Shown piece after piece: positions 1,238 through 30,712 of a stretch of DNA of 64,000 bases. The stretch comes from an uncultured Acidobacteriota bacterium (lineage in GTDB: Bacteria > Acidobacteriota > Vicinamibacteria > Vicinamibacterales > CAVVIG01): the NCBI GenBank assembly GCA_963794705.1, contig CAWCFI010000003.1, forward strand, positions 519,531-583,530, given 5' to 3'. The stretch's first letter is position 1. The number at the start of each line of letters is the position of its first letter. The notes below the pieces were generated by a model, which saw only the letters and a list, made by a program, of their open reading frames with translations, made no database searches and was not told where the DNA came from. Position numbers and translations under genes: made by a program.

Positions 1238-1271
1238 GTAGCGCGAAGGCTTTAGCCGAGCGCCTTCGCTT
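1238..1271. repeat. REP-like GTAG-headed hairpin overlapping the clpA stop codon
   Basis: GTAGCGCGAAGGC-TTTA-GCCGAGCGC, followed by GCCTTCGC pairing with GCGAAGGC. The same 22-mer recurs at 44427..44448. The clpA stop (TTA on plus, 1252..1254) lies in the TTTA loop. Confidence 0.45.
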
Positions 1272-3597
1272 CGTAGGCAAACGTGAGCGCGTTGTCGGCG
1301 ACCCCGATCGTCACGGTGCCGCCGTGCTCGAGCGCGCCGAACAGGATCTGATCGGTGAGCGGATCCCGCACTTCCTTCTGCACCACCCGCCCGAGCGGGC
1401 GCGCGCCGAACACGGGATCGTAGCCCTTCACCGCCAGCCAGGCGCGCGCCTCTTCGGTCAGCGTGATCGCGACGTGCCGCTCGGCCAGCTGCTGCTCGAG
1501 CTGCAGCACGAACTTGTCGACGATCTGCTCCATCACCGACGCGCTCAGGGTGCGGAAGGTGACGATCGCGTCGAGGCGGTTGCGGAATTCCGGGCTGAAC
1601 ACCTTCTCGATCGCGGTCTTCGACTTGCTGGCCGCGGCCTTGCGCAGCCGCTCGTCGTGCGCGTCGCCGCTGCCGCCCTCGGCAAACCCGATCGACGCCG
1701 CGCTCATCTCGCGCGAGCCGGCGTTCGACGTGAGGATCAGCACCACGTTGCGGAAGTCGGCCTTCCGGCCGGTGTTGTCGGTGAGGGCCGCGTGGTCCAT
1801 CACCTGCAGCAGGATGTTGTAGATGTCCGGATGCGCCTTCTCGATCTCGTCGAGCAGGACGACGCTGTAGGGATGGGTGCGGACCATGTCGACCAGCAGG
1901 CCGCCCTGCTCGAAGCCGACGTAGCCGGGCGGCGCGCCGATCAGCCGCGCCACCGCATGCTTCTCCATGTACTCGCTCATGTCGATGCGCGAGAACTCGT
2001 TGCCGAGCTGAATGGCGAGCTGTTTGGCGAGCTCGGTCTTGCCGACGCCGGTCGGTCCGGTGAACAGGAAGCAGCCGGCCGGACGATCGGGCTGACCAAG
2101 GCCGGCGCGCGAGCGCTTGATCGCCTGCGCCACCAGATGCACCGCGTCGTCCTGGCCGAACACCACCCGCTGCAGCGATTCCTCCAGCGTGCGCAGCCGT
2201 TCGCGATCCGAGGACGAAGCCTGGCGAGCCGGGATGCGCGCGATGCGCGCCACGATCCGCTCGATGTCAGGAGCGTCGACGATCACGGTGGCGGGAGGGG
2301 CAGGAAGGGCGGGATGGGCTGGATCGGCAGGATCCGCCGGCACGGCGGGCGGCGCGGCCAACCGTGCCACCGAGCCTGCTTCGTCGATCAGATCGATCGC
2401 GCTGTCGGGCAGCTTGTAGTCGCGCAGATGACGTGCGGCCAGCTTCACGGCCGCCTCGATCGCCGCATCGGTATAGGCGACGCGGTGGTGGTCCTCGTAG
2501 CGGCTCTTCAACCCCGCCAGGATGCGGATGGCCTCCTCGATCGACGGCTCCTCGATCGCGATCTTCTGCAGCCGGCGCGCCAGCGCGCGATCCTTCTCGA
2601 TGTGTTTGTACTCGTCGAACGTCGTCGATCCGATCACGCGCAGCTCGCCGGCGGTCAGCATCGGCTTGATCAACGTCGCCAGATCCATCGTGCCGCCAGT
2701 GGTCGCGCCGGCGCCGACGGTGGAGTGGATCTCGTCGATGAACAGAATCGACTTCGGCCGGGCGCTGAGCGCCCTGATGACCGCCTTGAAGCGCTCCTCG
2801 AAATCGCCGCGGAAGCGCGTGCCCGCGAGCAGCCCCGCGGTATCGAGCGAGAAGATTTCCGCGTCCCGCAGCGCCTCGGGCGCATCGTCGGCCAGCAGGC
2901 GCACCGCGAGCCCCTCGGCCATCGCGGTCTTGCCCACGCCAGCCTCGCCGACAAACACCGGATTGTTCTTGCGGCGCCGGCACAGCACCTCGATGGTGCG
3001 CTGCAGCTCCAGCGTCCGGCCGATCAGCGGATCGAGGGCGCCCGCGCGGGCGCGCTCGGTCAGATTGGAACAGTAGGCGGCGAGGGGATCGCGCGCGGTC
3101 GCGGAGCCTTCGTCGCCGCCTCCGGCTTCGGTCCCATGCGGGCTCGAACCGGGTGCGCCGGTCGGGACCTTGGAAATGCCGTGCGAGATGTACTCGAGGA
3201 TGTCGAGCCGGGTGATGCCCTGCTCCGCCAGCAGCTGTGCCGCGTGGGTCTTGGGCTGCTGCAGGATCGCCGCAAAAATGTCGCCGGCCTCCACCTCGCC
3301 GCGCTGCGCGCTCTGGACGTGGAGCACGGCCGTCTGCAGCACGCGGCGAAACGCCGCGGTCTGCTCCGGCTCGCGGGCGTCGCCGCGCTTCATCTGCTCG
3401 AGCGACTCGCTCAAATAGGCGTCGAGATCGCGGCGCAGCCTCGGCAGATCGGCTCCGCAGGCGGCCAGGATGCGCTCCCCGTCGTTGTCGTGCGCGAGCG
3501 CGTAGAGCAGGTGCTCGAGCGTGACGTAGGCGTGCCGGCGCGAGACCGCTTCGCGGTAGGCGATGGTGAGGACGACTTCGATGGCGGCAGAAAACAC
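1252..3597 (-). CDS. clpA: ATP-dependent Clp protease ATP-binding subunit ClpA
   Basis: Intact 781 aa ORF. N-terminal Clp repeat MFSAAIEVVLTIAYREA. Two AAA+ modules with Walker A GEAGVGKT and GPTGVGKT. Lies 8 nt downstream of clpS. Confidence 0.95.
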   Translation of the reverse strand: MFSAAIEVVLTIAYREAVSRRHAYVTLEHLLYALAHDNDGERILAACGADLPRLRRDLDAYLSESLEQMKRGDAREPEQTAAFRRVLQTAVLHVQSAQRGEVEAGDIFAAILQQPKTHAAQLLAEQGITRLDILEYISHGISKVPTGAPGSSPHGTEAGGGDEGSATARDPLAAYCSNLTERARAGALDPLIGRTLELQRTIEVLCRRRKNNPVFVGEAGVGKTAMAEGLAVRLLADDAPEALRDAEIFSLDTAGLLAGTRFRGDFEERFKAVIRALSARPKSILFIDEIHSTVGAGATTGGTMDLATLIKPMLTAGELRVIGSTTFDEYKHIEKDRALARRLQKIAIEEPSIEEAIRILAGLKSRYEDHHRVAYTDAAIEAAVKLAARHLRDYKLPDSAIDLIDEAGSVARLAAPPAVPADPADPAHPALPAPPATVIVDAPDIERIVARIARIPARQASSSDRERLRTLEESLQRVVFGQDDAVHLVAQAIKRSRAGLGQPDRPAGCFLFTGPTGVGKTELAKQLAIQLGNEFSRIDMSEYMEKHAVARLIGAPPGYVGFEQGGLLVDMVRTHPYSVVLLDEIEKAHPDIYNILLQVMDHAALTDNTGRKADFRNVVLILTSNAGSREMSAASIGFAEGGSGDAHDERLRKAAASKSKTAIEKVFSPEFRNRLDAIVTFRTLSASVMEQIVDKFVLQLEQQLAERHVAITLTEEARAWLAVKGYDPVFGARPLGRVVQKEVRDPLTDQILFGALEHGGTVTIGVADNALTFAYEAKALG

Positions 3598-5987: not shown

Positions 5988-6359
5988 GTGGGACTGGACT
6001 CGTGCCCCTCGCACAGCTTGCGGACCACGCCGACGATTTCGGGAAAGCTGACCGGCTTGTGGAACGACGCGGCCGCGTCCATGTCCTGCACGCCGTCCGT
6101 CTCCATGCCCGACAGCACGACGATCGGAATCGCGGCGAGGCCGGGATCGCCGCGCTGCTCCTGCGGAACGTCCAGCCGTCCATCACCGGCATGCGCAGAT
6201 CGAGCAGGATGACGCTGGCGCTGCCGCCGCCGCGCAGATAGTCGAGCGCCTCGGCGCCGTTGGCGGCGGGCACCGGCGCGAATCCTTCCAGCGTCAGAAA
6301 TTGCTCATCAGCCGGACCAGATTCGGATCGTCATCGACGACGAGCACACTCGAGGGCAT
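5984..6359 (-). pseudogene. Single-domain CheY-like response regulator, two 1-nt frameshifts
   Basis: Manual minus-strand translation gives MPSSVLVVDDDPNLVRLMSNF / LTLEGFAPVPAANGAEALDYL...VILLDLRMPVMDGWTF / ...IPIVVLSGMETDG...FHKPVSFPEIVGVVRKLCEG in three frames. Both breaks look like a lost C in a CC pair (near 6296 and 6170). Confidence 0.7.
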
Positions 6360-6416
6360 GGACTCTCAGTGTAGGCCAATTGACAGCCGTGCAACCGGCG
6401 CGTAGTGTCGCGTTCC

Positions 6417-7572
6417 ATGCAACGACGTGATTTCCTGCGGCGTCGGCGCAGCCTCGCTGGCGCCTGGCGCGTCGAGGCGCGGCGCCAGTCGGCTCCGCCA
6501 TCTCCCGCCGCGACCGTGCTTTACGATGATCGCGCGGTCGCGCTCGATCGCATCGGCCCGGCCGCGCTGCGCGCGACGCGGCGCCTTGTGGATTCGTAAG
6601 CGCGATCTGCCGCGCGTCAACGGCTTCGAGCTGAAGCCGCAGGGCGCGTGCCGCGCCGACCTCTGTATTCCCATCCCGAAGACGATGACGCGCGGCGAGT
6701 ACTTCAACCTCACGGCCTTCGCGAAGAAGGCGGGCCAGGCGGTCGTCGCCGAACCGGCGGCACGCGTCTGGAGTTTCGGCGAGATGCAGGCGCTCGGCGG
6801 CGGGCTCGCCAACTCCCGCGTCGCGCCTGACTTCGAAGTCTCCGATCGGCGGGGCCGTCCCGTGCATCTTGCCGGTTTCCGCGGCAAGAAGGCGCTGGTG
6901 ATCACCTGGGCCTCCTGGTGAGGGTGCCGCTTTGATCTGCCAGGCTGGCAGAAGGTCTACGCGGAGCTGAAAGACCAGGAACTTCGAGATCATCGCGGCG
7001 GCGCAGGACGTCGGGCGGCGAAGCGGCCGCCGGCAGGTGGTACGACGCCGCGAAGGCGACGTTCACCACGCTGGTCGACACCAAGCACACCGTCAGCTCG
7101 GTGTTCCAGTTCATCAACGTGCCGATGGGCGTGTGGATTGACGAGAACGGGCGCGTCGTGCGCCCCGCCGAGCCGGCGTGGGCCGCGAGCCGCACCGACG
7201 TCTACGGCGGCAAGCCGCTCGAGATCGAAGGCGAACTGTACGTCGCCGCGCTGCGCGACTGGGTCGCCAACGGCGACAAGAGCGAGTACGTGCTCTCCGA
7301 CGAAGAGTTCGCGCGGCGCGTGAGGCCGCGCTCGCCTGCCGAAATGGAAGCCGAAGCCAGCTTCAAGCTCGCGGTCTGGTTCCAGCAGGCGGGCAACCCG
7401 GAGCTCGCCGCAGAAGTATTTCGAGCGCGCGCAGACGCTCAACCCCGACGACTGGAACTATCACCGTCAGGAATGGAGCTTCACGGGCGAAGCCGGCAAG
7501 AAGTGGCTGGAGAAGTTCAAGGGGTTCGACAAGGAGTACTACCCGAAGCTGCAGCTCAAAGAAGGGGGCTAG
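6417..7572 (+). pseudogene. Tat-signal thioredoxin-fold (TlpA/ResA-like) protein with in-frame TGA at the redox motif; multiply frameshifted
   Basis: MQRRDFLRGVGAASLA twin-arginine signal. ...GKKALVITWASW-TGA-GCRFDLPGWQKVYAELKDQ-NFEIIAAAQDVGG-...AGRWYDAAKATFTTLVDTKHTVSSVFQFINVPMGVWIDENGRVV...-KYFERAQTLNPDDWNYHRQEWSF...KLQLKEGG. About six frame changes are needed to read it. Confidence 0.6.
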
Positions 7573-7586
7573 TGCTGCGAGCTCCG

Positions 7587-7610
7587 GTCGTGTCCGGCTT
7601 TAGCCGGACC
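7587..7610. repeat. REP-family variant hairpin
   Basis: GTCGT-GTCCGGC-TTTA-GCCGGAC-C. It has the same architecture as GTAGT-GCAGGCC-TTCA-GGCCTGC-C. Lies between convergent genes. Confidence 0.4.
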
Positions 7611-7618
7611 AAGCGCGA

Positions 7619-8821
7619 TCACGGCCTAGCGCGCCTGACCGATCTCGGCTTCGCTCCTGCGGAGGGCCGCGCCTCTAGAACCTTTCGATAGATCTCCATC
7701 GCCCGGCGGCCGACCGCGTCCCAGCTCAGCTCGCGCGCGAAGTGATCCGCGAGCTGCGCGCGTTCCGCGTCGAGATCGCGGCGCGCCGGCGTCGGCGAGC
7801 GCACGCGCGCAGTCCTCGGCATCGCCCGGCGTCCACAGCGCGCCGACTGCTCCCGCACCCGTCATCAGCCGGAACGTCGGGATGCTGGTGACGACCGGCA
7901 CCGCGCCGCACGCGCAGGCTTCCATCAGCGAATAGCCGCTCCCCTCGTGATGGCTGCCGACGACGAACAGATCGGCCGCGCTGTAGAAGGAGGCCATCCG
8001 GTCGTGCGGCACCGCGCCGGCCAGGCGCACCCGCGCGCGTCAGCGCGGGCGACCGCTGCGATCGCGCTGCGCGCACGGCCTCGAGCAGCTCGCCGTCGCC
8101 GTAAATCATCGTCAGCGTCGCGTCGGGCAGATCCGGCAGCGCGCGCTCGAAGCCCGTCGAGCACCGTCAGCGGATCCTTGTTCGCGTTGAGGCGGCCGAC
8201 CCAGAGCATCGCCGGCGATCCGGTGACGCCGCTCGGCACGCGCCGTCGCGCGCGATCGATCGGCGTGCCCTGAGCCTTGTCGAAGGGCTGCAGCGTCGAG
8301 CTCGCCGGCATCACCTGATACGTCGGCTGATCGCGGGCGATGAAGCCGGCAGCGCCGCCACGCCGCCGCGTGCTCGTCGGCGGCAAACAAGAAACGCGTC
8401 GGCCGCGCGGCGCGTGGCGCGGCCGAGCAGGCGCAGCCCCGGGGCGCGGCCGATCGCGCCGCCGTCGGCGTGGCTCTGCACGACGAGGGCGCACGGCCGC
8501 GATCGAGCGCGCGGCGCAGCAGCCAGGTCTGCACCGGAAAGATCAGGCCGTTGACGTGGGCGACGTCCGGCCGGCAGCGCCGCGACCGCCGCCGGGATCG
8601 CCGCGCGGCGGAAGAGGTAGTCGACGCCGTTCCTGACGACCTCGACGTCGCGGTGAAAGCGCTGGACCACGGCGACCGGTCCGGCGCCGGCGCGGACGCA
8701 GCGCGTCACTCCAGCCGGTGAGGGTGAAATAGCGGCCGAGCAGCGCGTCGGGGTCGGTCAACGCCTTGTCGAACGCGTAGTTAACCTGGACGACCGAAAG
8801 CGGGTTCGGGCGAGTTTTCAC
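7619..8821 (-). pseudogene. Glycosyltransferase family 4-like (GT-B), several frameshifts
   Basis: Fragments on one strand: MKTRPNPLSVVQVNYAFDKALTDPDALLGRYFTLTGWS, VAVVQRFHRDVEVVRNGVDYLFRR, FYSAADLFVVGSHHEGSGYSLMEACACGAVPVVTSIPTF, DAERAQLADHFARELSWDAVGRRAMEIYRKV. Confidence 0.7.
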
Positions 8822-8908
8822 TTGAAGCGGCGCCCCATCGCCATATATTGTGCCTCTGCGTACAATAGTGTCGTTTTTCCCTCATCCACATCCACGCAGG
8901 AGTGCTCG

Positions 8909-11125
8909 ATGACTCGAAGAGTGTTTCAATCCCTGGTGGCCGTCGTCTCGCTCGTCCTGCTGGTCGGCCTGAAGCTCGCCGGGCAGACCGCCGGCGATGC
9001 CGAGCACGAAGAACGGCGACTGGACGCACTACACCGCCGATATGCGCGGCACCAAGTACTCGCCGCTCGATCAGATCAACGCGCAGCAACTTCAATCAGC
9101 TCGAAGTCGCGTGGCGGTTCAAGACCGACAACCTCGGCACGCGCCCCGAGTTCAAGCTCGAAGGCACGCCGCTGGCGATCAAGGGCGTCCTCTACACGAC
9201 CGCCGGCACGCGCCGCTCGGTGGTCGCGCTCGACGGCCGCACCGGCGAGCTGATCTGGACGCACAGCTACCGCGAAGGCAACCGCGCCGCGATCGCGCCG
9301 CGCCAGCTGTCGGGCCGCGGCGTCTGGTACTGGACCGACGGCAAGGGCGACGACCGCATCCTCTACGTCACCACCGGCTATCGCCTGATCGCGCTCAACG
9401 CCAAGAACGGCGCGATGGTCTCGTCGTTCGGCGAAGGCGGCGTCGTCGATCTGAAGAAGGGCGCGGTCATCGGCAAGGGCCAGCAGATCGAGCTGGAGAC
9501 CGGCGAGATCGGCCTGCACTCGACGCCGACCATCGTCGGCAACATCGTGCTGATCGGCTCGTCGTTCAAGGAAGGCATGACGGTCGCGACGCACAACAAC
9601 ACCAAGGGCCTGGTGCGCGCGTTCGACGTGAAGAGCGGCAAGCTGCTGTGGACGTTCAACACGATTCCGCGCCCCGGCGAGTTCGGCAACGACACGTGGG
9701 AAAACGAGTCGTGGGCGATCAACGGCAACACCGGCGTGTGGACGCAGATCACGGTCGACGAGGAAGCCGGGCCTGGTCTATCTGCCGGTCGAAGATCCGA
9801 CGTCGGACTACTACGGCGGCCATCGGCCCGGCAACAACCTGTTCGGCGACAGCATCGTCTGCGTCGACCTGAAGACCGGCCAGCGCAAGTGGCACTTCCA
9901 GATCGTGCATCACCCGATCTGGGACTACGACATGTCGTCGGCGCCGATCCTGCTCGACGCCAACGTCAACGGCAAGCTGGTCAAGGCGGTCGCGGTGCCG
10001 AGCAAGCAGTCGTTCCTCTACGTGTTCGATCGCATCACCGGCCAGCCGATCTGGCCGATCGAAGAGCGCGCCGGTGCAGCAGTCGGACGTGCCGACGGAG
10101 AAGACGTCGCCGACGCAGCCGTTCCCGACCAAGCCGCCGGCCTACGGCCGTCCGTTCCTCAAGGTGCCGGACGATCTGATCGACTTCACGCCGGCGATGC
10201 GCGCGCAGGCGCTCGAGAATCTCAAGAGCTATCGCGTGGCGGGGATGTACAACCCGCCGCTGCTCGGCACAGGTCGGCGGACGCTGCGCGGCGCGATCAA
10301 CGTCGGCAACGCGAGCGGCGGCACCAACTGGCCGGGCGCCGGCGCCGATCCGGAAACGCACACCGTCTACGCGCAGGCGGCGATGGCGTTCGTCAGCGGC
10401 CTGTCGCTGCGCGAGCCGCCGGCGACGCTTCGCTCGGACATGAAGTACGTCTCGGGCGTCGACGGCACCGAATTCCGCGAAGCGCTCGGCCCGGGCTTCG
10501 GCAGCGCGGCCGACTCGCCGCTCGCGGCGGCGCGCGGACGCGCCGGCGCGGCGCGGCGCCGGCGCGCCGACGCGCCGGCGGCGGGACGCGGCGGCCGTGG
10601 ACGCGGCGCGGCGCGGCGGCGGCGCCCGGCGCGCCGGCGCCGCCCGCGGGCGGCGGCGGCGGCCTCCAGGTCGAAGGCCTGCCGATCGTGAAGCCGCCGT
10701 ACGGCGTGCTCGCGGCGATCGATCTCGACAAGGGCGAGCTGAAGTTCCAGGTGCCGCACGGCGACACGCCGGACAACGTCCGCACCAATCCCGCGCTGCA
10801 GGGGATGAACATCCCGAAGACCGGCCAGAACGGCAGCGTCGGCCTGATGGTCACCAAGACGCTCGTCGTGCTCGGCGATCCGCAGGTGACGGCGCCGCCG
10901 GGACGCGCCGCGCGGCGCGATGCTGCGCGCCTACGACAAGAACAACGGCACCGAGGTCGGCGCCGTGTGGATGCCGGCGGCGCAGAGCGGATCGCCGATG
11001 ACCTACATGGCCGACGGCAAGCAGTACATCGTCGTCGCGGTCAGCGGCGGCAACTACTCGGGCGAGTACATCGCGTTCGCGCTGCCGAACGCGGCCGCGG
11101 AACACCAGCGTCGGGCAGCAGCTAA
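8909..11125 (+). pseudogene. Soluble PQQ-dependent dehydrogenase (glucose/quinate/shikimate-type), paralog A, at least 7 frame changes
   Basis: SD GCAGGAG then ATG 8909. Signal peptide. Colinear with paralogs B and C ([78 protein letters not shown]) but read across frames 2,0,1,2,0,2,0. No stop in the last frame before gene B, so the end is approximate. Confidence 0.8.
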
Positions 11126-11160: not shown

Positions 11161-13367
11161 ATGACACGAACATTGAAACGCACCGTGCTGGCGGCCGCCG
11201 CCATCGCCGGCGTGGCCGGGCTGATGACCGCCGGGCCGCGCATGACGGCCCAGCTCTCGGGGCAGGCCCCGGGATTCCCGAGCACCAAGAACGGCGAGTG
11301 GCCGTACTACACCGCCGACGTCAAGGGCTCGCGCTACTCGCCGCTCGATCAGATCAACGGCAGCAACTTCAACCAGCTCGAAGTCGCCTGGCGCTTCAAG
11401 ACCGACAACCTCGGCACGCGTCCCGAGTTCAAGCTCGAAGGCACGCCGCTGATGGTCAAGGGCGTCATCTACGCGACCGGCGGCACGCGCCGCTCGGTGG
11501 TCGCGCTCGACGGCAAGACCGGCGAGCTGATCTGGGTCCACGCCGAGAAGGAAGGCGCCCGCGCCGTCAACGCGCCGCGCCAGCTCTCGGGCCGCGGCCT
11601 CTCCTACTGGACCGACGGCAAGGGTGACGACCGCGTCATCTACGTCACGCCCGGCTATCGCCTGATCTCGCTGAACGCGAAGACCGGCGTGCCAATCACC
11701 GGCTTCGGCAGCAACGGCGTCGTCGACATGAAGGTCGGCGCCGTCGTCGGCAAGGGCCAGCAGATCGATCTGGAGACCGGCGAGATCGGCCTCCACTCGA
11801 CGCCGACCATCGCCAAGGACGTGATCATCGTCGGCTCGTCGTTCCGCGAAGGCCTGACGGTGAAGACGCACAACAACACCAAGGGCCTGGTGCGCGCGTG
11901 GGACGTCCGCACCGGCAAGCTGCTGTGGACGTTCAACACGATCCCGAAGCCGGGTGAATTCGGCAACGACACCTGGGAGAAGGAGTCGTGGGCGCAGAAC
12001 GGCAACACCGGCGTGTGGACGCAGATCACCGTCGACGAGGAGCTCGGCCTGGTCTACCTGCCGGTCGAGGATCCGACGTCGGACCTCTACGGCGGCCATC
12101 GTCCCGGCAACAACCTGTACGGCGACAGCCTGGTGTGCGTCGACCTGAAGACCGGCCAGCGCAAGTGGTACTACCAGATCGTCCATCACCCGATCTGGGA
12201 CTACGACATGCCGGCGGCGCCGCTGATCGCCGACATCAACGTCAACGGCAAGCCGGTCAAGGCGGTCGCGCAGGCGACCAAGCAGGGGCTGCTCTACGTG
12301 TTCGACCGCGTCACCGGACAGCCGGTGTGGCCGATCGAAGAGAAGCCGGTGCCGCAGACCGACGTTCCCGGCGAGAAGACCTCGCCGACGCAGCCGTTCC
12401 CGAGCCGTCCGCCGGCCTATTCGCGCAACGGCGTGATCGAGAGCGATCTGATCGACTTCACGCCGGAGCTCAAGGCCGCGGGTCTCGAAGCGTCGAAGCG
12501 CTTCCGCCTCGGCCCGGTGTTCCTGCCGCCGGTCGTCAGCAAGCTCGAAGGCCCGATCGGCGCGCTGACCTCGGGCACGCTGAGCGGCGGCGTCAACTGG
12601 CCGGGCTCGGCCTACGATCCGGAAATGCATGCCTTCTTCACGCATGCGTGCAACTCGTGCATCGCGCCGCTCGGCCTGGTCGCGCCGCCGAAGGACTTCT
12701 CGGATCTCGACTACGTGATGGGCACCGCCGGCGCCACATTCCGTCCGATCGAGGGTGGCGGTGTCGGCGAATCGGCCGACTCGCCGCGTCCCGCTCGTCC
12801 GGCGACACCTCCCCCGCCACCGACTCCTCCGCCGGCCGCGGCGGGTGGCGGTCGCGCGGGTGCTCCGCCGGCAGGTGGCGGCGGCGGTGGATTCGGTGCG
12901 ACGGTTCAGGGTCTGTCGATCGTCAAGCCGCCGTACGGCCAGATCGTCGGCATCAACCTGGACAAGGGCGAGCTGATGTGGTCGACGCCGCACGGCGACA
13001 CGCCTGACGCGGTCCGCAATCATCCGGCGCTGAAGGGTGTGAACATCCCGAAGACCGGTCAGCAGGGCAACGTCGGCGTGGTCGTGACCAAGACGCTGGT
13101 CGTATCCGGCGATCCGAGCGTGACGACGACGCCGGAGCATCCGCGCGGCGCGATGCTGCGTGCCTACGACAAGAACACCGGCGCGCAGGTCGGCGCGGTG
13201 TGGATGCCGGCGCCGCAGAGCGGCTCGCCGATGACCTACTAGCGTGGACGGCCGCCAGTACATCATCGTCGCGGTCAGCGGCGGCAACTACTCGGGCGAG
13301 TACATCGCGTTCGCGCTGCCGCAGTCGGCGACGCGCGGCACGGCGGGACGGTCGGTAGAATTCAGAA

Positions 13368-13378: not shown

Positions 13379-15659
<2,281 letters not shown>

Positions 15660-20251: not shown

Positions 20252-21668
20252 CTAGGCGGGCAGCGGCAGTTCGAGCGTGACGATGAAACCGCCGTCCGGC
20301 GCGTTGGCGGCGGTGGCGGTGCCGCCGTGGACCTCGAACGTCCGCCGGGTGATGGCGAGTCCCAGCCCGGTCCGCTCGGGGTTCGACAGGCCGTCGGTCA
20401 CCACCTGGGCGAACGGGACGAACAGCCCGTCGACCGCGGTCTCCGGCACGCCCGGGCCGTGATCGCGCACCTGGATGATCGCGCGCGATCCGTCGGCGGC
20501 CTGGCGCCGATCCAGCGAGACCTCTACCTTCGTGCGCGCCGCCGTGTGCCGGACCGCGTTGCGCACGACGTTCTCGACCGCGCCGCGCAGCATCTCGCGC
20601 GCGCCTTCCACCACGCAGGCGCCGCGCTGGCTGAACGCGACCGCGCACTCGCGATGACGCGCCTCGTACTCGGCGTCGGTGCTGACCTCTTCGACCACGC
20701 TGCCGAGGTCGAACCGCGTCGGCCGTTCGAGGTCGACGCCGCTGTCGACCCGCGCCATGGTCAGCAGCTGGCCAATCAGCTTGTTGAGCCGCTCCGCTTC
20801 GGTCTCGATGCGATCGAGATGCTCGGTGGTCGCCTGGCCGTTGCGCTGACGAGCAAGGCCGAGCGCCACGTTCAACCGCGCCAGCGGCGAGCGCAGCGCG
20901 TGCGAGACGTCCGCGAGCAGGTGCCGCTGGGCGGTCACCAGGTGCTCGATCCGCTCGGCCATGCGATCGAAGTCGCGGCCGAGATCGGCGAGCTCGTCCT
21001 TGCGCTCGATCACGCTGCCGTCCACCCGCGTCTGCAACTGCTGGTTGGCGATGTTGCGCGCCGCCAGCGCGCAGCCGATCGATCGGCTGCGCGATGTGGC
21101 GCGCCAGCACGAAACACAGCACGCCGGCGACCAGCAGGACCGCCGCGACCCGGCCGATCGACTCGCGGCTCGGGCGCTCGGCGTAGATGTCCGGCGACAG
21201 GAACTCGAACAGCGATCGGTTCAGGACCGAGGGGCTCGGGTAGTCGACCACCACGATGTGCGACGCGCCGCGCGCGTCGATGACGCGTTCGGCGATGATC
21301 CGTTCCGCCGGGTCCACGCGCGGCGAGCCCGGCGGCCACTCCGCCATCGAATTCACCAGCCGCCGCACCGGCGCATCGGGAGTGCGTCCGAGCACGTCCT
21401 TGCCGTCGGCGTCGAAGATGTAGTTCACGACGCCGGGATCCATCGCGAACGAGGCGACGTAGCGCGCCAGCGCGGCGGGGCCTTCGCGGCGCAGGATGCC
21501 TGATTCCTGCCGCGCCCACATGTCCAGGCGCGGCGTGTACTTCTCCTCCCAGCGCCGGTCGTCCTCGGCGCGCGAGTGGCTCAACTCGGTCAGCGAGACC
21601 AGCGTGCCGCTGACGATCAGCACGCCGAGCCAGAACCAGAGAAAGATTTTGACGTGCAGCCGGCGCAT
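20252..21668 (-). pseudogene. CpxA/EnvZ-type sensor histidine kinase, frameshift near 21050
   Basis: MRRLHVKIFLWFWLGVLIVSG N-terminus. HAMP, then LLADVSHALRSPLARL H-box and GLGLAITRRTFEVHGG in ORF 20252..21037. TGATG overlap with the regulator gene. Confidence 0.8.
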
Positions 21669-22416
21669 CAGCGTTCGTGGACGGGCATGCGCTCGTGCAG
21701 CGCATACTGATAGCCGATGCCGCGGACGCCCTTGATGCGCTCGGTCGCCGTCGGGCGCCGGCCCGAGCTTGCGCCGCAGGTTGCTGACGTGGGTGTCGAT
21801 GCTGCGGTCGAACGGCGAGAACTCCCGGCGCAGGACGCTCTGCACCAGCTCGTCGCGCGGGATCACCCGCCCGGCGCCGCGCAGCAGCAGGTCGAGCAGA
21901 TCGAACTCGACCGTCGTCAGGTCGAGCGCCTGATCGCCGCGCCGCGCGACCCGCGCGCCCTTGTCGACCGAGACGTCGCCGACCACGAGCGCGATCGCCG
22001 GCGCGCCGCTCGATCGACGCCTGTCGGCCGCGACCGGCGCAGGACCGCGTCGATGCGCGCGCTGAGCTCGCGCGGATTGAACGGCTTGGGCAGGTAGTCG
22101 TCGGCGCCCATCTCGAGGCCGAGGATCCGGTCCTGCTCGTCGCCGCGCGCCGTGAGCATCAGGATCGGCCGCCGCGACTGCGCCCGCACGCGGCCGCAGC
22201 ACCTCGAAGCCCTTGAGATCCGGCAGCATCACGTCGAGCACGACGATGCGCGTGATCGCCGGCGAGCGCGCGCTCGATCCCGAGACGTCCGGTATGGACG
22301 CACTCGACCGCATAGCCTTCGGTGGCGAGATATTCGGACAACAGCTCGCACAGCTCGGTGTCGTCGTCGACGACGAGCACGCGCAGCTCCGGAGAGCCAG
22401 CAGGCAGTGTGGACAT
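21668..22416 (-). pseudogene. OmpR/CpxR-family response regulator, at least 4 frameshifts
   Basis: MSTLPAGSPELRVLVVDDDTELCELL / [18 protein letters not shown] / [46 protein letters not shown] / [25 protein letters not shown]...HVSNLRRKL / GVRGIGYQY, in alternating frames. Confidence 0.8.
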
Positions 22417-22921: not shown

Positions 22922-24871
22922 ATGGCGCTGTCCTCGTTCCATCCCATCGTTTCGCAGTGGTTCTCTGAAACACTCGGCGAGCCGACCCGTGCCCAGGCGC
23001 TCGGATGGGCGGCGATCCGCGAGCGCCGTCACACGCTGATCGCGGCCCCGACCGGTTCGGGCAAGACGCTCGCCGCCTTCCTCACCTCGATCGACGATCT
23101 CGCGCAGGAGGCGATGGCCGGGCCGCTGCCGGACGAAGTGCGGGTCGTCTACGTCTCGCCGCTCAAGGCGCTGAGCGCCGACATCCACAAGAACCTCGCC
23201 GAGCCGCGTGCCGGCATCGAGCGGATCGCCGCGGCCGCCGGCGTGGCCGTGCCGCGAATCACTTCGGCGGTGCGCACCGGCGACACCCCGGCCTCGGAAC
23301 GCGCGGCGATGCTGAAGCGCCCGCCGCACATCCTGGTCACCACGCCGGAGTCGCTCTATCTGCTGCTCACGGCGGCGCGCAGCCGCGAGATGCTGCGGAC
23401 GGCGCGCACCGTCATCGTCGACGAGATCCACGCGGTGATCGGGACGCGGCGCGGCGCCCATCTGGCGCTGACGCTGGAGCGCCTGCAGGAGGCCGCCGAG
23501 CGTCCGCTGCTGCGCATCGGCCTGTCGGCGACGCAGAAGCCGATCGAAGAGGTCGCACGTTACCTGATCGGGTCGCGTTCCCAATCTGACATCTGCAATC
23601 TGCCATCTGCGATTGCGATCATCGACGAGGGCCACCGCCGCGCCATGGATCTCGGCATGGAGGTGCCGCGCTCGCCGCTCGACGCGGTGATGTCCCACGA
23701 GATCTGGGAGGAATATTTCGCGCGGCTGACCGCGCTCATCGAGCAGCACCGCACGACCCTGATCTTCGTCAACACGCGGCGCATGGCGGAGCGCGTGGCG
23801 CGTCACCTGAGCGAGCGCCTCGGCGAGGAGGCGGTCACCGCCCATCACGGCAGCCTGTCGAAGGAGAAGCGGCTCGACGCCGAAATGCGGCTGAAGGCCG
23901 GCCGCCTTCGGGCGCTGGTCGCAACCGCGTCGCTGGAGCTGGGCATCGACATCGGATCGATCGACCTGGTGTGCCAGATCGGATCGCCGCACCGGATCGC
24001 GACGCTGCTGCAGCGCGTCGGGCGATCGGGCCACACCATCTCGGGCACGCCCAAGGGACGGCTGTTCCCGGTGTCGCGCGACGATTTGATCGAGTGCGCG
24101 GCGCTGATGCGGTGCGCCCGCCGCGGCGAACTCGATCGCATCGTCAGCCACGACGCGCCGCTGGACGTGCTGGCGCAGCAGATCGTCGCCGAGACCGCGT
24201 GCCGCGACTACGGCGAGGACGAGCTGTTCGCACTGGTCAGACGCGCCTGGCCGTATCGCGCGCTGACGCGATCGAGCTTCGACGCCGTGGTCGCGATGAC
24301 CGCCGAGGGGTTCGCGACCAGGCGCGGACGCCGCAGTGCGCTCGTTCACCGCGACGAAGTGAACGCGCGGCTGCGCGGGCGGCGCGGCGCGCGCATGCTG
24401 GCGATCGCGTCGGGCGGCGCCATCCCGGAAGTCGCGGACTATCGGGTCGTGCTCGATCCCGGCGACACCTTCATCGGCACCCTCAACGAAGACTTCGCGA
24501 TCGAGAGCAACGCCGGCGACGTGTTTCAGCTGGGCAACGCGTCGTGGCAGGTGCTGCAGGTGCTGACCGGCGTCGTGCGCGTGGCCGACGCAAAAGGGGC
24601 GCCGCCGACGATTCCGTTCTGGCTCGGCGAGGCGCCGGCGCGCAGCGACGAGCTGTCGCGCGCCGTCAGCGATCTGCGCGCGGATATTGAGGCAAGACTC
24701 ACGGCAGGCCTGAAGGCCTGCACTACACGAGACGACGGCGGACATCCCGCGGTCGTAGTGCAGGCCTTCAGGCCTGCCATGGCCGCGGTCGAAGCCTTTA
24801 GGCCTGCCATCGCCGCAGTCGTATGCAGGCCTGAGGCCTGCCATGGCCGCAGTCGTAGTGCAGGCCTTTAG
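22922..24871 (+). CDS. lhr: ATP-dependent helicase Lhr, N-terminal fragment (helicase core)
   Basis: Walker [48 protein letters not shown]. The ORF ends at a TAG inside a REP loop (24869..24871). Confidence 0.9.
23582..23609. repeat. Heptanucleotide array NNATCTG x4 inside lhr
   Basis: caatctg acatctg caatctg ccatctg. Translated as [11 protein letters not shown]. Confidence 0.6.
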
Positions 24872-24887
24872 GCCTGCCGTCGCGTGG
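24703..24887. repeat. REP array inside lhr: one inverted REP plus four tandem 36-nt REP-derived units
   Basis: GGCAGGCCTGAAGGCCTGCACTAC (24703..24726). Units start at 24752 (36 nt), 24788 (30 nt), 24818 (34 nt) and 24852 (36 nt), each GTC-GTAGTGCAGGCCTT(C/T)AGGCCTGCC-ATGGCCGCA-like. Confidence 0.85.
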
Positions 24888-27416
24888 CTCGTCGAGGAGA
24901 CAGGCATTCCCGAGGCCGCCGCGGAACAGGCCATTGCCTATCTCGCCGATGGCCGCGCCGCGCTGGGCGTGCTGCCGACGCAGGACACCATCGTGCTCGA
25001 GCGGTTCTTCGACGAATCGGGCGGGATGCAGCTCGTGCTGCACGCGCCGTTCGGCAGCCGCGTCAACAAGGCGTGGAGCCTGGCGCTGCGCAAGCGATTC
25101 TGCCGGCAGTTCAACTTCGAGCTTCAGGCCGCCGCCACCGAGGACGCGCTGCTGCTGTCGCTCGGCCCGCAGCACTCGTTCCCGCTGGCCGACGTATTCC
25201 GCTATCTGCACCCGGCGACGACGCGCGACGTGCTGGTGCAGGCGTTTCTCGACGCGCCGGTGTTCCAGACGCGCTGGCGGTGGAACACCACCATCTCGCT
25301 GGCCGTGCCGCGCAATCGCGGCGGCAAGAAAGTGCCGCCGCAGCTGCAGCGGATGCTGGCCGACGACCTGATGGCCGCGGTCTTTCCCGACGCCGCCGCC
25401 TGTCTGGAAAACATTCCCGGCGATCGCGAAATCCCGGACCATCCGCTCGTCAGCCAGGCGGTGCGCGACTGCCTCGAGGAAGCGATGGACTTCGAGGCGC
25501 TGTCGGCCGTGCTCGCCCGGATCCACGGCGGCGGGATCCGCTGCGTCGCGCGCGACACGCCGGAACCCTCCGCGCTGGCGCACGACATTCTCAACGCCCG
25601 GCCGTACGCGTTCATGGACGATGCCCCGCTCGAAGAGCGGCGGACGCAGGCGGTCTACACCCGCCGCGCCGGCGAGCCCTCGGGCGCCGATGACCTCGGC
25701 GCGCTGGATGCCGCCGCGATCGAACGAGTCCGCGACGAAGCGCGTCCCGATCCGCGCGACGCGGATGAGTTGCACGACGCACTCCTCAGCGCGGGCTTCC
25801 TGACGCAGCGCGACATCACCTCGGTCGCGCCGGACCTTTTTCGCGCGCTCGCCGACGCGCGTCGTGCGTGCGAATTCAGCATTCCACATTCGGCATTCAG
25901 AATTCTTGCGGCGGCCGAGCGCCTGCCGGAATTGCGCGCCGTTCACGCCGACGCGGTGTGCGCACCGCTCGTCGATCCGCCGCCGTCGCGCGCCGCGCGG
26001 GTCTGGAGCCGGGACGAAGCGATCGTCGGACTCCTGCGCGGCCGCCTCGCGATCGCCGGACCGACCACGGCGCAGGCGCTCGCCGACGCGATGGGCATCG
26101 ACGTCGCGGACGCGGATCGCGCGCTGCTCGCGCTCGAGGGTGAGGGCCTGGTGCTGCGCGGCCACTTCTCCAAACGGGCACCCCTTTTGGAATGGTGTGA
26201 CCGCCGCCTGCTCGCCCGGATTCATCGCTACACGCTCAACCGCCTGCGCGCCGAAATCGAGCCGGTCAGCCCGTCCGACTTCATGCGGTTCCTGTTCGCG
26301 TGGCAGCACGTCGCGCCCTCGAGCCGCCTGACCGGGCTCGACGGACTGCGCGCCGTCCTCGACGCACTCGACGGCTTCGAGCTGGCTGCCGACGCCTGGG
26401 AGCGCGCGATCCTGCCGGACCGCATCGACGGCTATCAACCGTCGATGCTCGACACGCTGTGCCTGACCGGCGAGATCGGCTGGGCCCGGCTCTCCCCCAC
26501 CGGCCGTGACGCGACGCAGATGGTCGGCGCGACGCCGATCGCCCTGTTCCTGCGCGAGCACGCTAATGCCTGGGCAGCCCTGAAAGACTGGGGCCCGAGT
26601 CACGACGACGACCCCGAGCAGCGCCTCGAGTCGCCGAAGCGCGATGAGCGCGACGGCGGCCGCCTCGTGCTCGAGGCGCTTCGCACCCGCGGCGCCTCGT
26701 TCATCACCGACCTGACGTCAGCCTGCGGCCTGGACGAAGCGGCGGTGCGGACCGCGCTCGGCGATCTCGTCGCCGCCGGTCTCGCCGCCTCCGACGGCTT
26801 CGGCGGCCTGCGGACCATCATCCGCTCGTCCAGCGGACGCTCGACGCCGCCGGGCCGCAGCAGCGTCACGGGCCGCTGGTCCCTCTTGAACGGCGCCGGC
26901 CTTCAGGCCTGCGATCGCGAAACCGCCGTCGAACTCCAGGCGCGCACACTGCTGAAGCGCTACGGCATCGTGTTCCGCCGCCTGCTGGCCCGCGAAGCGA
27001 ACGTCGCGCCCTGGCGCGAGCTGATTCGGGTGTACCGGCGTCTGGAGGCGCGTGGCGAAATCCGCGGCGGGCGATTCGTGTCCGGCATGTCCGGCGAGCA
27101 GTTCGCGCTCGACGGCGCGATCGCGGGCCTTCGGGAAATGCGTCGGACGCCGGCCGACGGCGCGTGCCTGGTCATCAGCGCCGCCGATCCGCTGAACCTC
27201 GCCGGCATCGTAACCGCGGGCGAGAAGGTACGGGCCGTCGCGCCGACGCGGATTGCGTATCGGGACGGCGTCGCTGTTGCAGCACTCGAAGGCGACTATG
27301 TGCGACCATTGATCGCGCTCGCCGACGTCGCTCCCGCGATTGCCGCCGAGGTGGCGACAACGCTTGCGGGGCGCCCGGTCGGGGCGGTGCTCAGTGGTTT
27401 TGTCGGGAGGTCATGA
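24843..27416 (+). CDS. lhr: ATP-dependent helicase Lhr, continuation (Lhr-core domain 4 plus C-terminal domain)
   Basis: 857 aa. [36 protein letters not shown]. 649 + 857 aa together match the roughly 1500 aa size of Lhr. Confidence 0.85.
25872..25905. repeat. Heptanucleotide array NNATTCN x5 inside lhr
   Basis: gaattca gcattcc acattcg gcattca gaattc. Translated as [12 protein letters not shown]. Same motif family as 13355..13397 and 38673..38700. Confidence 0.6.
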
Positions 27417-28216: not shown

Positions 28217-28369
28217 ATGCTGTATACACTGGCGGTGATTCTGTTGATTGCCTGGCTGCTCGGCGTGGTCGGGACCTATACCATTGGCGCGTTCGTCCAC
28301 GTGCTGCTCGTGATTGCCATCGTGCTGTTCCTGGTCGGCCTGATCAGCGGCCGTCAGACACTGGCCTAG
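28217..28369 (+). CDS. lmo0937-family small membrane protein (50 aa)
   Basis: Not in the ORF track because it is under 60 aa. GGAGG SD. MLYTLAVILLIAWLLGVVGTYTIGAFVHVLLVIAIVLFLVGLISGRQTLA is a typical two-helix lmo0937-like sequence. Confidence 0.65.
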   Translation: MLYTLAVILLIAWLLGVVGTYTIGAFVHVLLVIAIVLFLVGLISGRQTLA

Positions 28370-30585: not shown

Positions 30586-30712
30586 GAGCGGATGATACAA
30601 CCCCGCGGCGTTGTCCTCGAAATGCATCAGCAGTATGGCGATATCAAAGCAATTGCTAAAGATTTCGATGGCAAGCAACTTGCCCCTGATAGGGGCATTG
30701 CCGGAGGGCACA

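What the first reader, a model, noticed from the sequence alone, without database searches (positions are those of the whole stretch)
6901..6964. In-frame TGA at the redox motif WASW-U-GC of a Tat-exported thioredoxin-fold protein: candidate selenoprotein
The reading frame ...GKKALVITWASW hits TGA (6919..6921). It then continues without interruption as GCRFDLPGWQKVYAELKDQ, which is the position and context of the active-site Cys in TlpA/ResA-type redoxins (FWASWCxPCR..P.L..LY). The pattern W-A-x-x-U-G-C matches what I recall as a RefSeq family name, ResA-like WAxxUGC motif-containing protein. This is from memory and must be verified. A hairpin CTGCCA-GGC-TGGCAG lies at 6937..6951, 16 nt after the TGA. 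An outer CCGC/GCGG pairing (6927..6930 with 6961..6964) could extend it. Together these could form a bacterial SECIS. Caveat: the same gene needs about six frame corrections, so a plain nonsense mutation cannot be excluded.
Basis: partly seen in the sequence, partly recalled or inferred. Interest (0 to 1): 0.7.

Follow-up and report, generated by a model that had tools for sequence, protein, structure and literature searches.

The report
Known UGC-motif selenoprotein redoxin gene

Summary
TGA 6919-6921 lies in frame inside W-A-S-W-TGA-G-C of a 385-codon gene (6417-7572, + strand). The frame-corrected protein matches NCBIfam NF041054, "ResA-like WAxxUGC motif-containing protein" (E 7e-89). It scores 298.6-299.4 bits against a curated cut-off of 300.

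Across 118 distinct orthologous sequences from public genomes, this column is TGA in 111 and TGC (Cys) in 7. Substitutions are biased to third codon positions on both sides of the TGA, so one reading frame runs through it.

A 7-bp hairpin (6936-6952, loop GGC, -9.8 kcal/mol) sits 21 nt after the TGA and meets all four criteria of the published bacterial SECIS model. It is kept in about 93% of cells across 70 Sec forms. One pair covaries (U-A 72, C-G 24) and a silent stem position is G in 112 of 112. It is disrupted in 5 of 7 Cys forms. The outer CCGC/GCGG stem is not conserved.

The six frame corrections are real. They belong to patchy single-base insertion noise that also hits neighbouring genes, so they do not show decay of this gene.

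Sec machinery is absent from the window and cannot be tested for this genome. The family has been in the literature since 2008 as "Prx-like (UGC-containing)". Verdict: already known, low interest.

The parts
6417..7572 (+). Whole gene for the exported UGC-motif redoxin selenoprotein: ATG at 6417, TAG at 7570-7572, about 385 codons. As given, it needs six frame corrections.
   Evidence: Three-frame translations. NCBIfam NF041054 E 7e-89, profile positions 9-335 of 354. 84-89% nt and about 90% aa identity to L001/L002.
6417..6500 (+). N-terminal twin-arginine-type signal (MQRRDFL..., then the hydrophobic stretch VGAASLAPGA). It contains two of the frame breaks (about 6441 and about 6475).
   Evidence: TIGR01409 TAT_signal_seq scores 15.6 bits (cut-off 16.7) on the reconstruction and 18.4 bits on the near relative P0055. 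Relatives also start MxRRDF(L/I).
6649..6666 (+). Conserved Cys pair C-x4-C (GACRADLCIP) in the N-terminal domain that precedes the thioredoxin fold.
   Evidence: Both Cys are invariant in the alignment of 38 full-length homologues (C80 and C85 of P0002). The domain is modelled with high confidence and has no PDB match.
6907..6927 (+). Redox motif W-A-S-W-U-G-C (TGG GCC TCC TGG TGA GGG TGC).
   Evidence: W, A, S, W, C/U and C are invariant in homologues. It aligns to WASWCGPC of ResA/Etrx-type proteins with a one-residue gap.
6919..6921 (+). In-frame TGA, read as selenocysteine.
   Evidence: TGA in 111 and TGC in 7 of 118 distinct orthologous sequences. Third-position-biased divergence on both sides of the codon.
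6936..6952 (+). SECIS hairpin. Stem 6936-6942 pairs with 6946-6952 (7 bp, UCUGCCA/UGGCAGA); apical loop GGC at 6943-6945.
   Evidence: -9.8 kcal/mol. 93% of cells paired in 70 Sec forms. Pair 6936/6952 covaries: U-A 50 and C-G 16; U-A 72 and C-G 24 in 112 sequences. Silent position 6939 is G in 112 of 112. Meets the bSECIS criteria quoted in PMC13188914.
6927..6964 (+). It is not part of the conserved element.
   Evidence: It is present in the single-sequence MFE fold. However, three of the four pairs form in only 34-43% of the 70 Sec forms, and RNAalifold does not predict it.
6977..6979 (+). Single-base insertion (frame 1 to frame 2) relative to L001, L002 and L003.
   Evidence: blastn gap lists.
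7010..7015 (+). Single-base insertion in a G run (frame 2 to frame 3).
7406..7412 (+). Single-base insertion (frame 3 to frame 1), inside the C-terminal helical domain.
6820..7180 (+). Thioredoxin-fold (ResA/TlpA-like) core domain; approximate limits.
   Evidence: Pfam AhpC-TSA 49.2 bits and Redoxin 34.6 bits. PDB sequence hits to Etrx, TlpA and ResA, E 7e-13 to 1e-8. Foldseek hits to ResA, DsbE and TlpA, E about 1e-10, TM 0.73-0.82 per target.
7230..7569 (+). C-terminal helical, TPR-like domain with the invariant W-N-Y-x-R-Q-x-W signature; approximate limits.
   Evidence: Weak Pfam TPR hits, below gathering score. Invariant columns. Helices 273-371 in the model of P0002. No PDB match covers it.

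Best explanation
The gene 6417-7572 encodes an exported thiol-disulfide oxidoreductase of about 385 residues. It has three domains: an N-terminal domain with a Cys pair, a ResA/TlpA-like thioredoxin fold, and a C-terminal helical domain.

Shown here:
- The active-site nucleophile is selenocysteine, encoded by UGA 6919-6921.
- The gene belongs to, or sits at the edge of, the curated 'ResA-like WAxxUGC motif-containing protein' / 'Prx-like (UGC-containing)' selenoprotein family.
- The UGA column, the single reading frame across it, and the downstream hairpin are all conserved in relatives.

Inferred from how bacterial Sec insertion is known to work: the hairpin 6936-6952 inside the coding sequence acts as the SECIS. 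It binds SelB carrying Sec-tRNA(Sec), which delivers Sec to the ribosome when the UGA is in the A site. Translation then continues through G-C-R-F-D-L-P-G-W-Q.

Inferred from the motif and fold: after export (probably by Tat), the selenolate attacks an oxidised substrate, either a disulfide or a sulfenic acid/peroxide. The Cys two residues downstream resolves the adduct as an intramolecular selenenylsulfide in a tight U-G-C ring. The substrate and the recycling reductant are unknown.

The six frame breaks in this copy are most likely sequencing or assembly errors rather than decay.
For: Family match:
- NF041054 is the top hit at E 4e-89 to 7e-89.

Sec/Cys column:
- TGA in 75 of 79 loci from the first genome scan.
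- TGA in 111 and TGC in 7 of 118 distinct sequences after a second scan. The carriers span Acidobacteriota, Planctomycetota, Hydrogenedentota and Gammaproteobacteria.

Translation continues past the TGA:
- Differences from L001 and L002 are 35/52 and 31/44 at third codon positions downstream.
- Upstream they are 37/51 and 34/49.

Public gene callers split the gene:
- They yield about 200-aa C-terminal fragments for the Sec forms.
- They yield full-length proteins of about 380 aa for the Cys forms.

SECIS:
- The 7-bp stem is 93% paired across 70 Sec forms. The observed pairing and covariation exceed all 500 shuffles and all slid controls.
- Pair 18-34 is U-A 72, C-G 24, U-G 3.
- The Leu/Val codon in the stem ends in G in 112 of 112 sequences. 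The neighbouring Leu codon ends in G in only 11 of 79.
- Mean hairpin energy is -8.9 kcal/mol in Sec forms and -4.6 in the 7 Cys forms. In 5 of those 7, two to four of the seven stem pairs are broken.
- All four published bSECIS criteria are met: loop 3-9 nt, stem 4-16 bp, G in the first two loop positions (A-GGC-U fits N1-G-[G|U]-N-N2), UGA-to-loop spacing 16-37 nt (here 21), and MFE at or below -7.5 kcal/mol (here -9.8).

Fold:
- ResA, TlpA, DsbE and Etrx are the best matches by sequence and by structure.

Frameshifts as noise:
- The same single-base insertions, mostly in short G/C runs, riddle the adjacent glycosyltransferase and PQQ-dehydrogenase-like genes relative to two independent references.
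- The substitution pattern still shows purifying selection.

Literature:
- The family is listed as a selenoprotein family in PMC2398784 and PMC13188914.
Against: - No tRNA-Sec, selA, selB or selD lies in the 64 kb window. The rest of the genome is unavailable, so Sec decoding capacity of this organism is not shown.
- The reconstructed protein scores 298.6-299.4 bits, just under the curated 300-bit cut-off of NF041054.
- As written, the sequence cannot produce a full-length protein without six frame corrections.
- On the single sequence the hairpin is not statistically remarkable.
- Stem pairs 20-23/29-32 are largely forced by the conserved peptide L-P-x-W-Q. Two Cys forms (L081, L139) still fold a hairpin there.
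- No biochemical data for this family were found in the searched literature.
Confidence: 0.93

Rival explanations
1. This particular copy is a decaying pseudogene of a selenoprotein gene. On this reading the six frameshifts are real mutations, so the TGA is ancestral Sec but nothing functional is made here.
For: Six frame breaks fall in 1.16 kb. Many other genes in the window are intact over 500-800 codons, so the noise is not uniform.
Against: - In the C-terminal half of the gene and in the neighbouring genes the breaks are +1 insertions, mostly in short G/C runs (the three in the signal/linker region are mixed indels).
- The same kind of insertion hits the adjacent GT4 and PQQ-dehydrogenase-like genes, and other patches of the window.
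- No in-frame stop other than the Sec TGA appears after correction.
- Divergence from relatives remains biased to third positions, with about 90% aa identity.
- Bacterial pseudogenes usually decay by deletions, not by a run of +1 insertions (general knowledge).
Confidence: 0.12
2. The TGA is an ordinary nonsense mutation or a base-calling error in a Cys codon (TGC to TGA) of a TlpA/ResA-type redoxin.
For: The region is error-prone. TGC and TGA differ by one base. Cys forms of the family exist.
Against: - All close relatives carry the identical TGG TGA GGG TGC.
- 111 of 118 distinct orthologous sequences from independent assemblies have TGA at this column.
- The Sec-specific hairpin is present.
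- The errors seen in this window are insertions, not substitutions.
Confidence: 0.01
3. The TGA is a true stop. The locus makes two separate polypeptides, or TGA is reassigned to Trp or Gly in this lineage.
For: Gene callers output a separate C-terminal ORF of about 200 aa. One pipeline translated the TGA as W (P0001).
Against: - A stop here would cut the thioredoxin fold at its active site.
- The homologous column holds Cys, not Trp or Gly, in the non-TGA forms.
- The carriers belong to phyla that use the standard code (general knowledge).
- The stretch 6922-6978 between the TGA and the called restart sites is conserved as coding sequence in the same frame.
Confidence: 0.01
4. Functional rival: the enzyme is a peroxidase (Prx/GPx-like, with the selenolate reducing peroxides) rather than a ResA/TlpA-like disulfide reductase.
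For: - Pfam AhpC-TSA is the best Pfam hit, 49 bits.
- There is a weak GSHPx hit at E 3e-4 and a plant GPx5 PDB hit at E 3e-4.
- The local context xASxUG resembles the GPx active-site string NVASxUG (my knowledge).
- The literature name is 'Prx-like (UGC-containing)'.
Against: - The best sequence and fold matches are all extracytoplasmic thiol-disulfide oxidoreductases: ResA, TlpA, DsbE, Etrx, SdbA.
- The motif aligns to WCxxC with a one-residue gap.
- The Prx signature PxxxTxxC is absent: A at -3 and V at -7.
- The GSHPx hit is below Pfam's gathering score.
Confidence: 0.3

Closest known systems
NCBIfam NF041054.1 (WAxxUGC_long), 'ResA-like WAxxUGC motif-containing protein'
   Same: Same motif W-A-x-x-U-G-C, same length class and the same three-part architecture. 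The match covers profile positions 9-335 of 354 at E 7e-89.
   Different: The score is 298.6-299.4 bits, against a curated cut-off of 300. Relatives score 294.6-308.3, so this acidobacterial clade straddles the cut-off. That may be why public records show split genes.
[quoted passage not shown]
   Same: UGC Sec motif in a pfam00578/TlpA-like thioredoxin fold. The family was reported as more abundant in non-marine samples, which fits the soil-type Acidobacteriota relatives here.
   Different: I did not compare sequences with the published exemplar (MDE0950781.1). The identification rests on motif, fold and name. In that survey Cys homologues outnumbered Sec forms (855 to 46, broad definition). 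In the long subfamily sampled here Sec forms dominate (111 to 7).
ResA / TlpA / DsbE (CcmG) / Etrx extracytoplasmic thiol-disulfide oxidoreductases
   Same: Same thioredoxin fold with the WxxW-C context. Best PDB matches by sequence (E 7e-13 to 1e-8) and by fold (E about 1e-10, TM 0.73-0.82 per target). Exported.
   Different: Those proteins have C-x-x-C and no Sec. This family has U/C-G-C, one residue shorter. It also carries extra N-terminal (Cys-pair) and C-terminal (helical) domains with no PDB counterpart.
Bacterial SECIS consensus (bSECISearch model, as summarised in PMC13188914)
   Same: Loop size, stem length, G at the start of the loop followed by G, spacing of 21 nt and MFE of -9.8 kcal/mol all fall within the model.
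   Different: The element is minimal: one 7-bp stem with a 3-nt loop (or 6 bp with a 5-nt loop). No conserved lower stem reaches back to the UGA.
Formate dehydrogenase-N/O catalytic subunit (FdnG/FdoG) as a Tat-exported selenoprotein (my knowledge, not tested here)
   Same: A precedent for a selenoprotein with a twin-arginine signal. The window's N-terminus even gives a weak hit to the formate-dehydrogenase TAT-target model TIGR02811.
   Different: Unrelated fold and chemistry (molybdopterin enzyme). The resemblance lies only in the export route.

Membership tests
NCBIfam NF041054 (ResA-like WAxxUGC motif-containing protein) | Whole-protein HMM score at or above the curated cut-off (300 bits) | tested here: inconclusive
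   299.4 bits without the N-terminus and 298.6 bits for the full reconstruction, at E 7e-89. The query has U replaced by C and guessed residues at six frame joins, so a 1.4-bit shortfall is within reconstruction error. Relatives score 308.3 (P0011), 297.6 (P0002) and 294.6 (P0006).
NCBIfam NF041054 (ResA-like WAxxUGC motif-containing protein) | Motif W-A-x-x-U-G-C with U encoded by TGA | tested here: met
   TGG GCC TCC TGG TGA GGG TGC at 6907-6927.
NCBIfam NF041054 (ResA-like WAxxUGC motif-containing protein) | 'Long' architecture: near full-length match to the 354-position profile | tested here: met
   One stretch covering profile positions 9-335 of 354.
Bacterial selenoprotein gene (general criteria) | In-frame UGA aligned with UGA or Cys in homologues | tested here: met
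   111 TGA and 7 TGC among 118 distinct orthologous sequences.
Bacterial selenoprotein gene (general criteria) | Coding conservation continues in the same frame downstream of the UGA | tested here: met
   Third-position bias of differences both downstream (35/52, 31/44) and upstream (37/51, 34/49). Downstream peptide GCR(F/L)DLPGWQ is conserved.
Bacterial selenoprotein gene (general criteria) | SECIS stem-loop just downstream of the UGA that fits the bSECIS model (loop 3-9 nt, stem 4-16 bp, G in the first two loop positions, spacing 16-37 nt, MFE at or below -7.5 kcal/mol) | tested here: met
   7-bp stem, loop GGC, 21-nt spacing, -9.8 kcal/mol. Criteria taken from PMC13188914. Conservation and covariation.
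Bacterial selenoprotein gene (general criteria) | selA, selB, selD and tRNA-Sec present in the same genome | not testable with these tools
   None in the 64 kb window and none beside the gene in 80 related loci. The rest of the genome is not available. Sec use in Acidobacteriota is documented in the literature (PMC1794560 Table 2; PMC12013277 Table 2).
TlpA/ResA-like thiol-disulfide oxidoreductases (cd02966) | Thioredoxin fold of the TlpA/ResA type | tested here: met
   PDB sequence hits to Etrx2, TlpA and ResA. Foldseek hits to ResA, DsbE and TlpA at E about 1e-10, run on the model of homologue P0002 (pLDDT 87.8).
TlpA/ResA-like thiol-disulfide oxidoreductases (cd02966) | C-x-x-C active-site motif | tested here: not met
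   The motif is U-G-C (C-G-C in Cys forms). HMMER needs a one-residue gap to align it with WASWCGPC. It therefore works like, and derives from, the TlpA/ResA fold, but it is a distinct CxC-type subfamily.
Peroxiredoxin (AhpC/TSA, PF00578) | Pfam score above the gathering threshold | tested here: met
   49.2 bits against 26. PF00578 is a broad model that also captures TlpA-like proteins.
Peroxiredoxin (AhpC/TSA, PF00578) | Peroxidatic signature P-x-x-x-T-x-x-C (signature recalled from general knowledge) | tested here: not met
   The context is V-I-T-W-A-S-W-U, with A at -3 and V at -7.
Twin-arginine (Tat) exported proteins | Tat signal HMM (TIGR01409) above its cut-off | tested here: inconclusive
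   15.6 bits against 16.7 for the reconstructed window N-terminus, which contains two frame joins. The near relative P0055 scores 18.4 bits and P0002 scores 16.6.

The most novel reading that the evidence does not exclude
In Acidobacteriota the UGC selenoprotein may be a dedicated periplasmic partner of the PQQ-dependent-dehydrogenase-like quinoproteins encoded immediately downstream. That arrangement occurs in 38 of 80 related loci across several classes. The window has three such paralogues. The redoxin could, for example, form or repair a redox-active disulfide in them through its strained U-G-C selenenylsulfide. If so, this would give a selenoprotein family of unknown function its first physiological substrate. 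Separately, the clade scores just under the NCBIfam cut-off and is routinely split by gene callers. It may therefore be a widespread, under-counted soil selenoprotein.
Probability: 0.08. Interest if true: 0.5.

Novelty: already known. Interest (0 to 1): 0.2.

Why it matters
Mainly for annotation. The gene should be called as one selenoprotein ORF (6417-7572, with transl_except at 6919-6921), not as a truncated redoxin plus an orphan 'TPR' or hypothetical protein. The split form is how public pipelines report most relatives. The acidobacterial clade sits within a few bits of the NCBIfam cut-off, so automatic naming can miss it.

Biologically it adds one more example of a family in which Sec, not Cys, is the prevalent form (111 to 7 in species representatives). 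The SECIS there constrains the peptide L-P-G-W-Q. The family's substrate is still unknown. Nothing here challenges current understanding.

Tried and rejected
- A GC3 phase-switch (Viterbi) count was tried as a measure of window-wide frameshift density. It could not separate the window (1.66 switches per kb) from reference loci (0.8-1.9 per kb) and was dropped. Direct blastn gap lists against L001-L003 were used instead.
- RNAalifold on the 70-sequence alignment returned only the four invariant pairs. The fuller stem had to be tested with explicit pair counts.
- Sec machinery was sought in the window with ARAGORN, Rfam and NCBIfam scans of stitched translations of about 90% of the window. Nothing was found.
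- tRNA-Sec was sought beside the gene in 80 related loci. None was found.
- I found no way to pull SelD, SelA or SelB from the relatives' genomes. Protein-seeded scans return only the closest 80 matches to the seed.
- DNA for the Cys form P0004 was unavailable. Cys forms were obtained from P0011 and a second genome scan instead.
- A full-text search for 'WAxxUGC' found no paper. Peng 2016 and BSepDB do not mention the family in their main text.
- The promoter and terminator consensus scan of 6200-7800 found nothing.
- A crude scan for other in-frame TGAs with coding signal on both sides gave only one antisense artefact at 62457. It did not even recover the true site, so it is uninformative.
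- Foldseek found no PDB counterpart for the N- or C-terminal domains.
Full report
**Observation.**
In the frame of ORF 6427..6921 the peptide ...GKKALVITWASW runs into TGA at 6919-6921. The same frame continues as GCRFDLPGWQKVYAELKDQ.
- The inverted repeat CTGCCA-GGC-TGGCAG is at 6937-6951. CCGC and GCGG are at 6927-6930 and 6961-6964.
- The whole gene runs from ATG 6417 (MQRRDFL...) to TAG 7570-7572. It needs six frame corrections.
- Three corrections fall in the signal/linker region, at about 6441, 6475 and 6570-6582.
- Three are single-base insertions at about 6979, 7015 and 7406-7412. They are located by alignment to the three closest public relatives.

**What the protein is.**
- With the frames joined and U written as C, the best family is NCBIfam NF041054.1, WAxxUGC_long, 'ResA-like WAxxUGC motif-containing protein'. 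The E-value is 4e-89 to 7e-89 and the match covers profile positions 9-335 of 354.
- The score is 298.6-299.4 bits against a curated cut-off of 300. Relatives score 294.6 to 308.3, so this clade straddles the threshold.
- Pfam gives AhpC-TSA and Redoxin above threshold, plus weak TPR hits at the C-terminus.
- The closest solved structures, by sequence and by fold, are all extracytoplasmic thiol-disulfide oxidoreductases: Etrx2, TlpA, ResA and DsbE. The fold search used an AlphaFold model of the 67%-identical Cys homologue P0002 (pLDDT 87.8).
- These matches cover only the central domain.
- HMMER aligns WASWCG-C of this family to WASWCGPC with a one-residue gap. The active site is therefore U/C-x-C, not CxxC.
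- The N-terminal domain has an invariant C-x4-C pair. The C-terminal helical domain has an invariant WNYxRQxW signature. Neither has a PDB counterpart.
- The N-terminus looks like a twin-arginine signal. TIGR01409 scores 15.6 bits against a 16.7 cut-off here and 18.4 bits in the near relative P0055.

**Is the TGA a Sec codon?**
- A scan of one genome per species found 80 related loci. They come from Acidobacteriota (Vicinamibacterales, Bryobacteraceae, Blastocatellia, Holophagae), Planctomycetota, Hydrogenedentota, Pseudohongiella and others. The best are 89-91% identical in protein.
- At the homologous column 75 of 79 loci have TGA and 4 have TGC. After a second scan seeded with a Cys form, the tally over distinct sequences is 111 TGA to 7 TGC.
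- The protein database shows the expected annotation artefact. Cys forms are called full length at about 380 aa. Sec forms appear as C-terminal fragments of about 200 aa.
- One apparently full-length protein with W at the site (P0001) actually has TGA in its DNA. Another (P0003) has AGA with the hairpin intact.
- Against L001 and L002, nucleotide differences are concentrated at third codon positions both upstream (37/51, 34/49) and downstream (35/52, 31/44) of the TGA. One frame is therefore under purifying selection across the codon.

**SECIS.**
- On the single sequence the hairpin is unremarkable. Six-bp hairpins occur 427 times in this GC-rich window, against about 220 in shuffles. The 57-nt fold has z = -1.1.
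- The 23-nt hairpin alone gives -9.8 kcal/mol, z = -2.4.
- The comparative evidence is decisive. In an ungapped alignment of 70 distinct Sec forms (A1), the helix 6936-6942/6946-6952 is paired in 93% of cells.
- The closing pair 6936/6952 covaries: U-A in 50 and C-G in 16. In 112 sequences it is U-A 72, C-G 24, U-G 3.
- The Leu/Val codon inside the stem ends in G in 112 of 112 sequences (CTG, GTG, TTG). The Leu codon two residues upstream ends in G in only 11 of 79. This shows selection on a silent site.
- Several stem pairs are forced by the peptide L-P-x-W-Q. This is why RNAalifold reports only four invariant pairs.
- In 5 of the 7 Cys forms, two to four of the seven stem pairs are broken. 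Mean hairpin energy is -4.6 kcal/mol in Cys forms and -8.9 in Sec forms.
- The element meets every criterion of the bacterial SECIS model as summarised in PMC13188914: a 3-9 nt loop, a 4-16 bp stem, G in the first two loop positions (A-GGC-U fits the stated pattern), 16-37 nt spacing (21 here), and MFE at or below -7.5 kcal/mol.
It pairs in only about 35-40% of relatives and shows no support. I do not count it as part of the element.

**Frameshifts.**
- Relative to L001 and L002, the window carries many single-base insertions, mostly in short G/C runs.
- They occur in this gene, in the adjacent minus-strand GT4 glycosyltransferase (about 7626-8800), and in the PQQ-dehydrogenase-like gene at about 8997-11110.
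- Other patches of the window are similarly broken, while genes such as clpA (1255-3588) are intact.
- After correction no extra stop appears, and the protein is about 90% identical to its orthologues.
- I read the breaks as patchy sequencing or assembly error. I keep a 12% chance that this copy is a real pseudogene. Either way the TGA is the ancestral Sec codon, not a nonsense mutation.

**Sec machinery.**
- ARAGORN finds no tRNA in the window. Rfam finds nothing at gathering thresholds.
- NCBIfam scans of stitched translations covering about 90% of the window find no SelA, SelB or SelD.
- This is expected for 64 kb and says nothing about the genome.
- No tRNA-Sec lies next to the gene in 80 related loci.
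- The literature records selenoproteins in Acidobacteria (PMC1794560 Table 2) and in an acidobacterial isolate (PMC12013277 Table 2).

**Mechanism.**
- Shown: a conserved UGA, a conserved downstream hairpin with covariation, a single frame across both, and a ResA/TlpA-type fold with U at the position of the N-terminal active-site Cys.
- Inferred from established bacterial Sec biology: SelB with Sec-tRNA(Sec) binds the hairpin and decodes the UGA.
- Inferred from motif and fold: after export the selenolate attacks an oxidised substrate. Cys+2 then resolves the adduct as a selenenylsulfide.
- Whether the enzyme is a disulfide reductase or isomerase (my preference, about 60%) or a peroxidase (about 30%) cannot be decided here.
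- For the peroxidase reading: the AhpC-TSA hit, a weak GSHPx hit and the xASxUG context.
- For the ResA/TlpA reading: the structural neighbours and the absence of the PxxxTxxC signature.

**Comparison with what is known.**
- The family was described as 'Prx-like (UGC-containing)' in the GOS selenoproteome, with 46 Sec sequences, and was noted as more abundant in non-marine samples (PMC2398784).
[quoted passage not shown] It has its own NCBIfam model.
- No paper uses the string WAxxUGC, and I found no biochemical characterisation.
- The finding is therefore correct and already known.
- The only mildly new observations are these. Sec forms outnumber Cys forms 111 to 7 in this long subfamily. The acidobacterial clade falls at the NCBIfam cut-off and is usually mis-annotated. 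A PQQ-dehydrogenase-like gene follows the redoxin gene on the same strand in 38 of 80 loci.

Noticed in passing
window 8997-11110, 11179-13345 and 49404-51548; L001-L048, L056, L062: A PQQ-dependent-dehydrogenase-like gene of about 700-770 aa lies immediately downstream of the UGC redoxin gene, on the same strand, in 38 of 80 related loci across several acidobacterial classes. It matches NCBIfam TIGR03074 and TIGR04528, 'acido-empty-quinoprotein'. The window holds three such paralogues. This could be a functional link or just inherited synteny.
   Followed up: partly
window about 7626-8800 (- strand): A GT4 glycosyltransferase gene is wedged between the redoxin gene and the PQQ-dehydrogenase-like gene in the window and in L001, but not in L002. 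It is the most heavily frameshifted stretch seen, with more than ten single-base insertions relative to L001.
   Followed up: partly
window about 6400-11100, 13574-15655, 21069-22392, 53922-56793: Frameshifting noise, almost all +1 insertions, is patchy. These stretches are broken into fragments. Other genes are intact over 500-800 codons: clpA 1255-3588, 11179-13239, 22973-24682, 24876-27272 and 28369-30741. This suggests uneven consensus quality in the source assembly.
   Followed up: partly
window 6380-6408: TTGACA-N17-TAGTGT lies 8 nt upstream of the ATG at 6417 and is conserved in L001 and L002 (alignment). It fell below the promoter scanner's threshold. There is no Shine-Dalgarno-like sequence before the ATG. 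The gene may have a very short-leader or leaderless transcript.
   Followed up: no
L162:301-1455 (protein P0003): One relative has AGA (Arg) in place of the Sec TGA, while the downstream hairpin GATCTGCCAGGCTGGCAG is intact. This is either a recent inactivating change or an assembly error in that MAG.
   Followed up: partly
L044 about 3335-3370: One Bryobacteraceae MAG keeps the TGA but has a deletion that removes the peptide PGWQKVYxELKD and with it the SECIS hairpin (GCRLDLRQNFEIVA). It is probably a pseudogene or a misassembly.
   Followed up: no
proteins P0009, P0010, P0059 and others; P0001 (L163): Public gene calls for Sec forms are C-terminal fragments of about 200 aa, named 'hypothetical' or 'TPR repeat protein'. 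One JGI call translated the TGA as W. This is a systematic mis-annotation of the family.
   Followed up: partly
window 7586-7604: A 6-bp GC-rich hairpin (TCCGGC TTTA GCCGGA) lies about 15 nt after the stop codon, without a T run. The terminator scan did not call it.
   Followed up: no
window 6331-6993 and 6366-6905 (- strand): Long antisense ORFs (220 and 179 aa) overlap the redoxin gene. Homologous antisense ORFs cluster across loci simply because the sense gene is conserved. This is a typical high-GC artefact, not a gene.
   Followed up: partly
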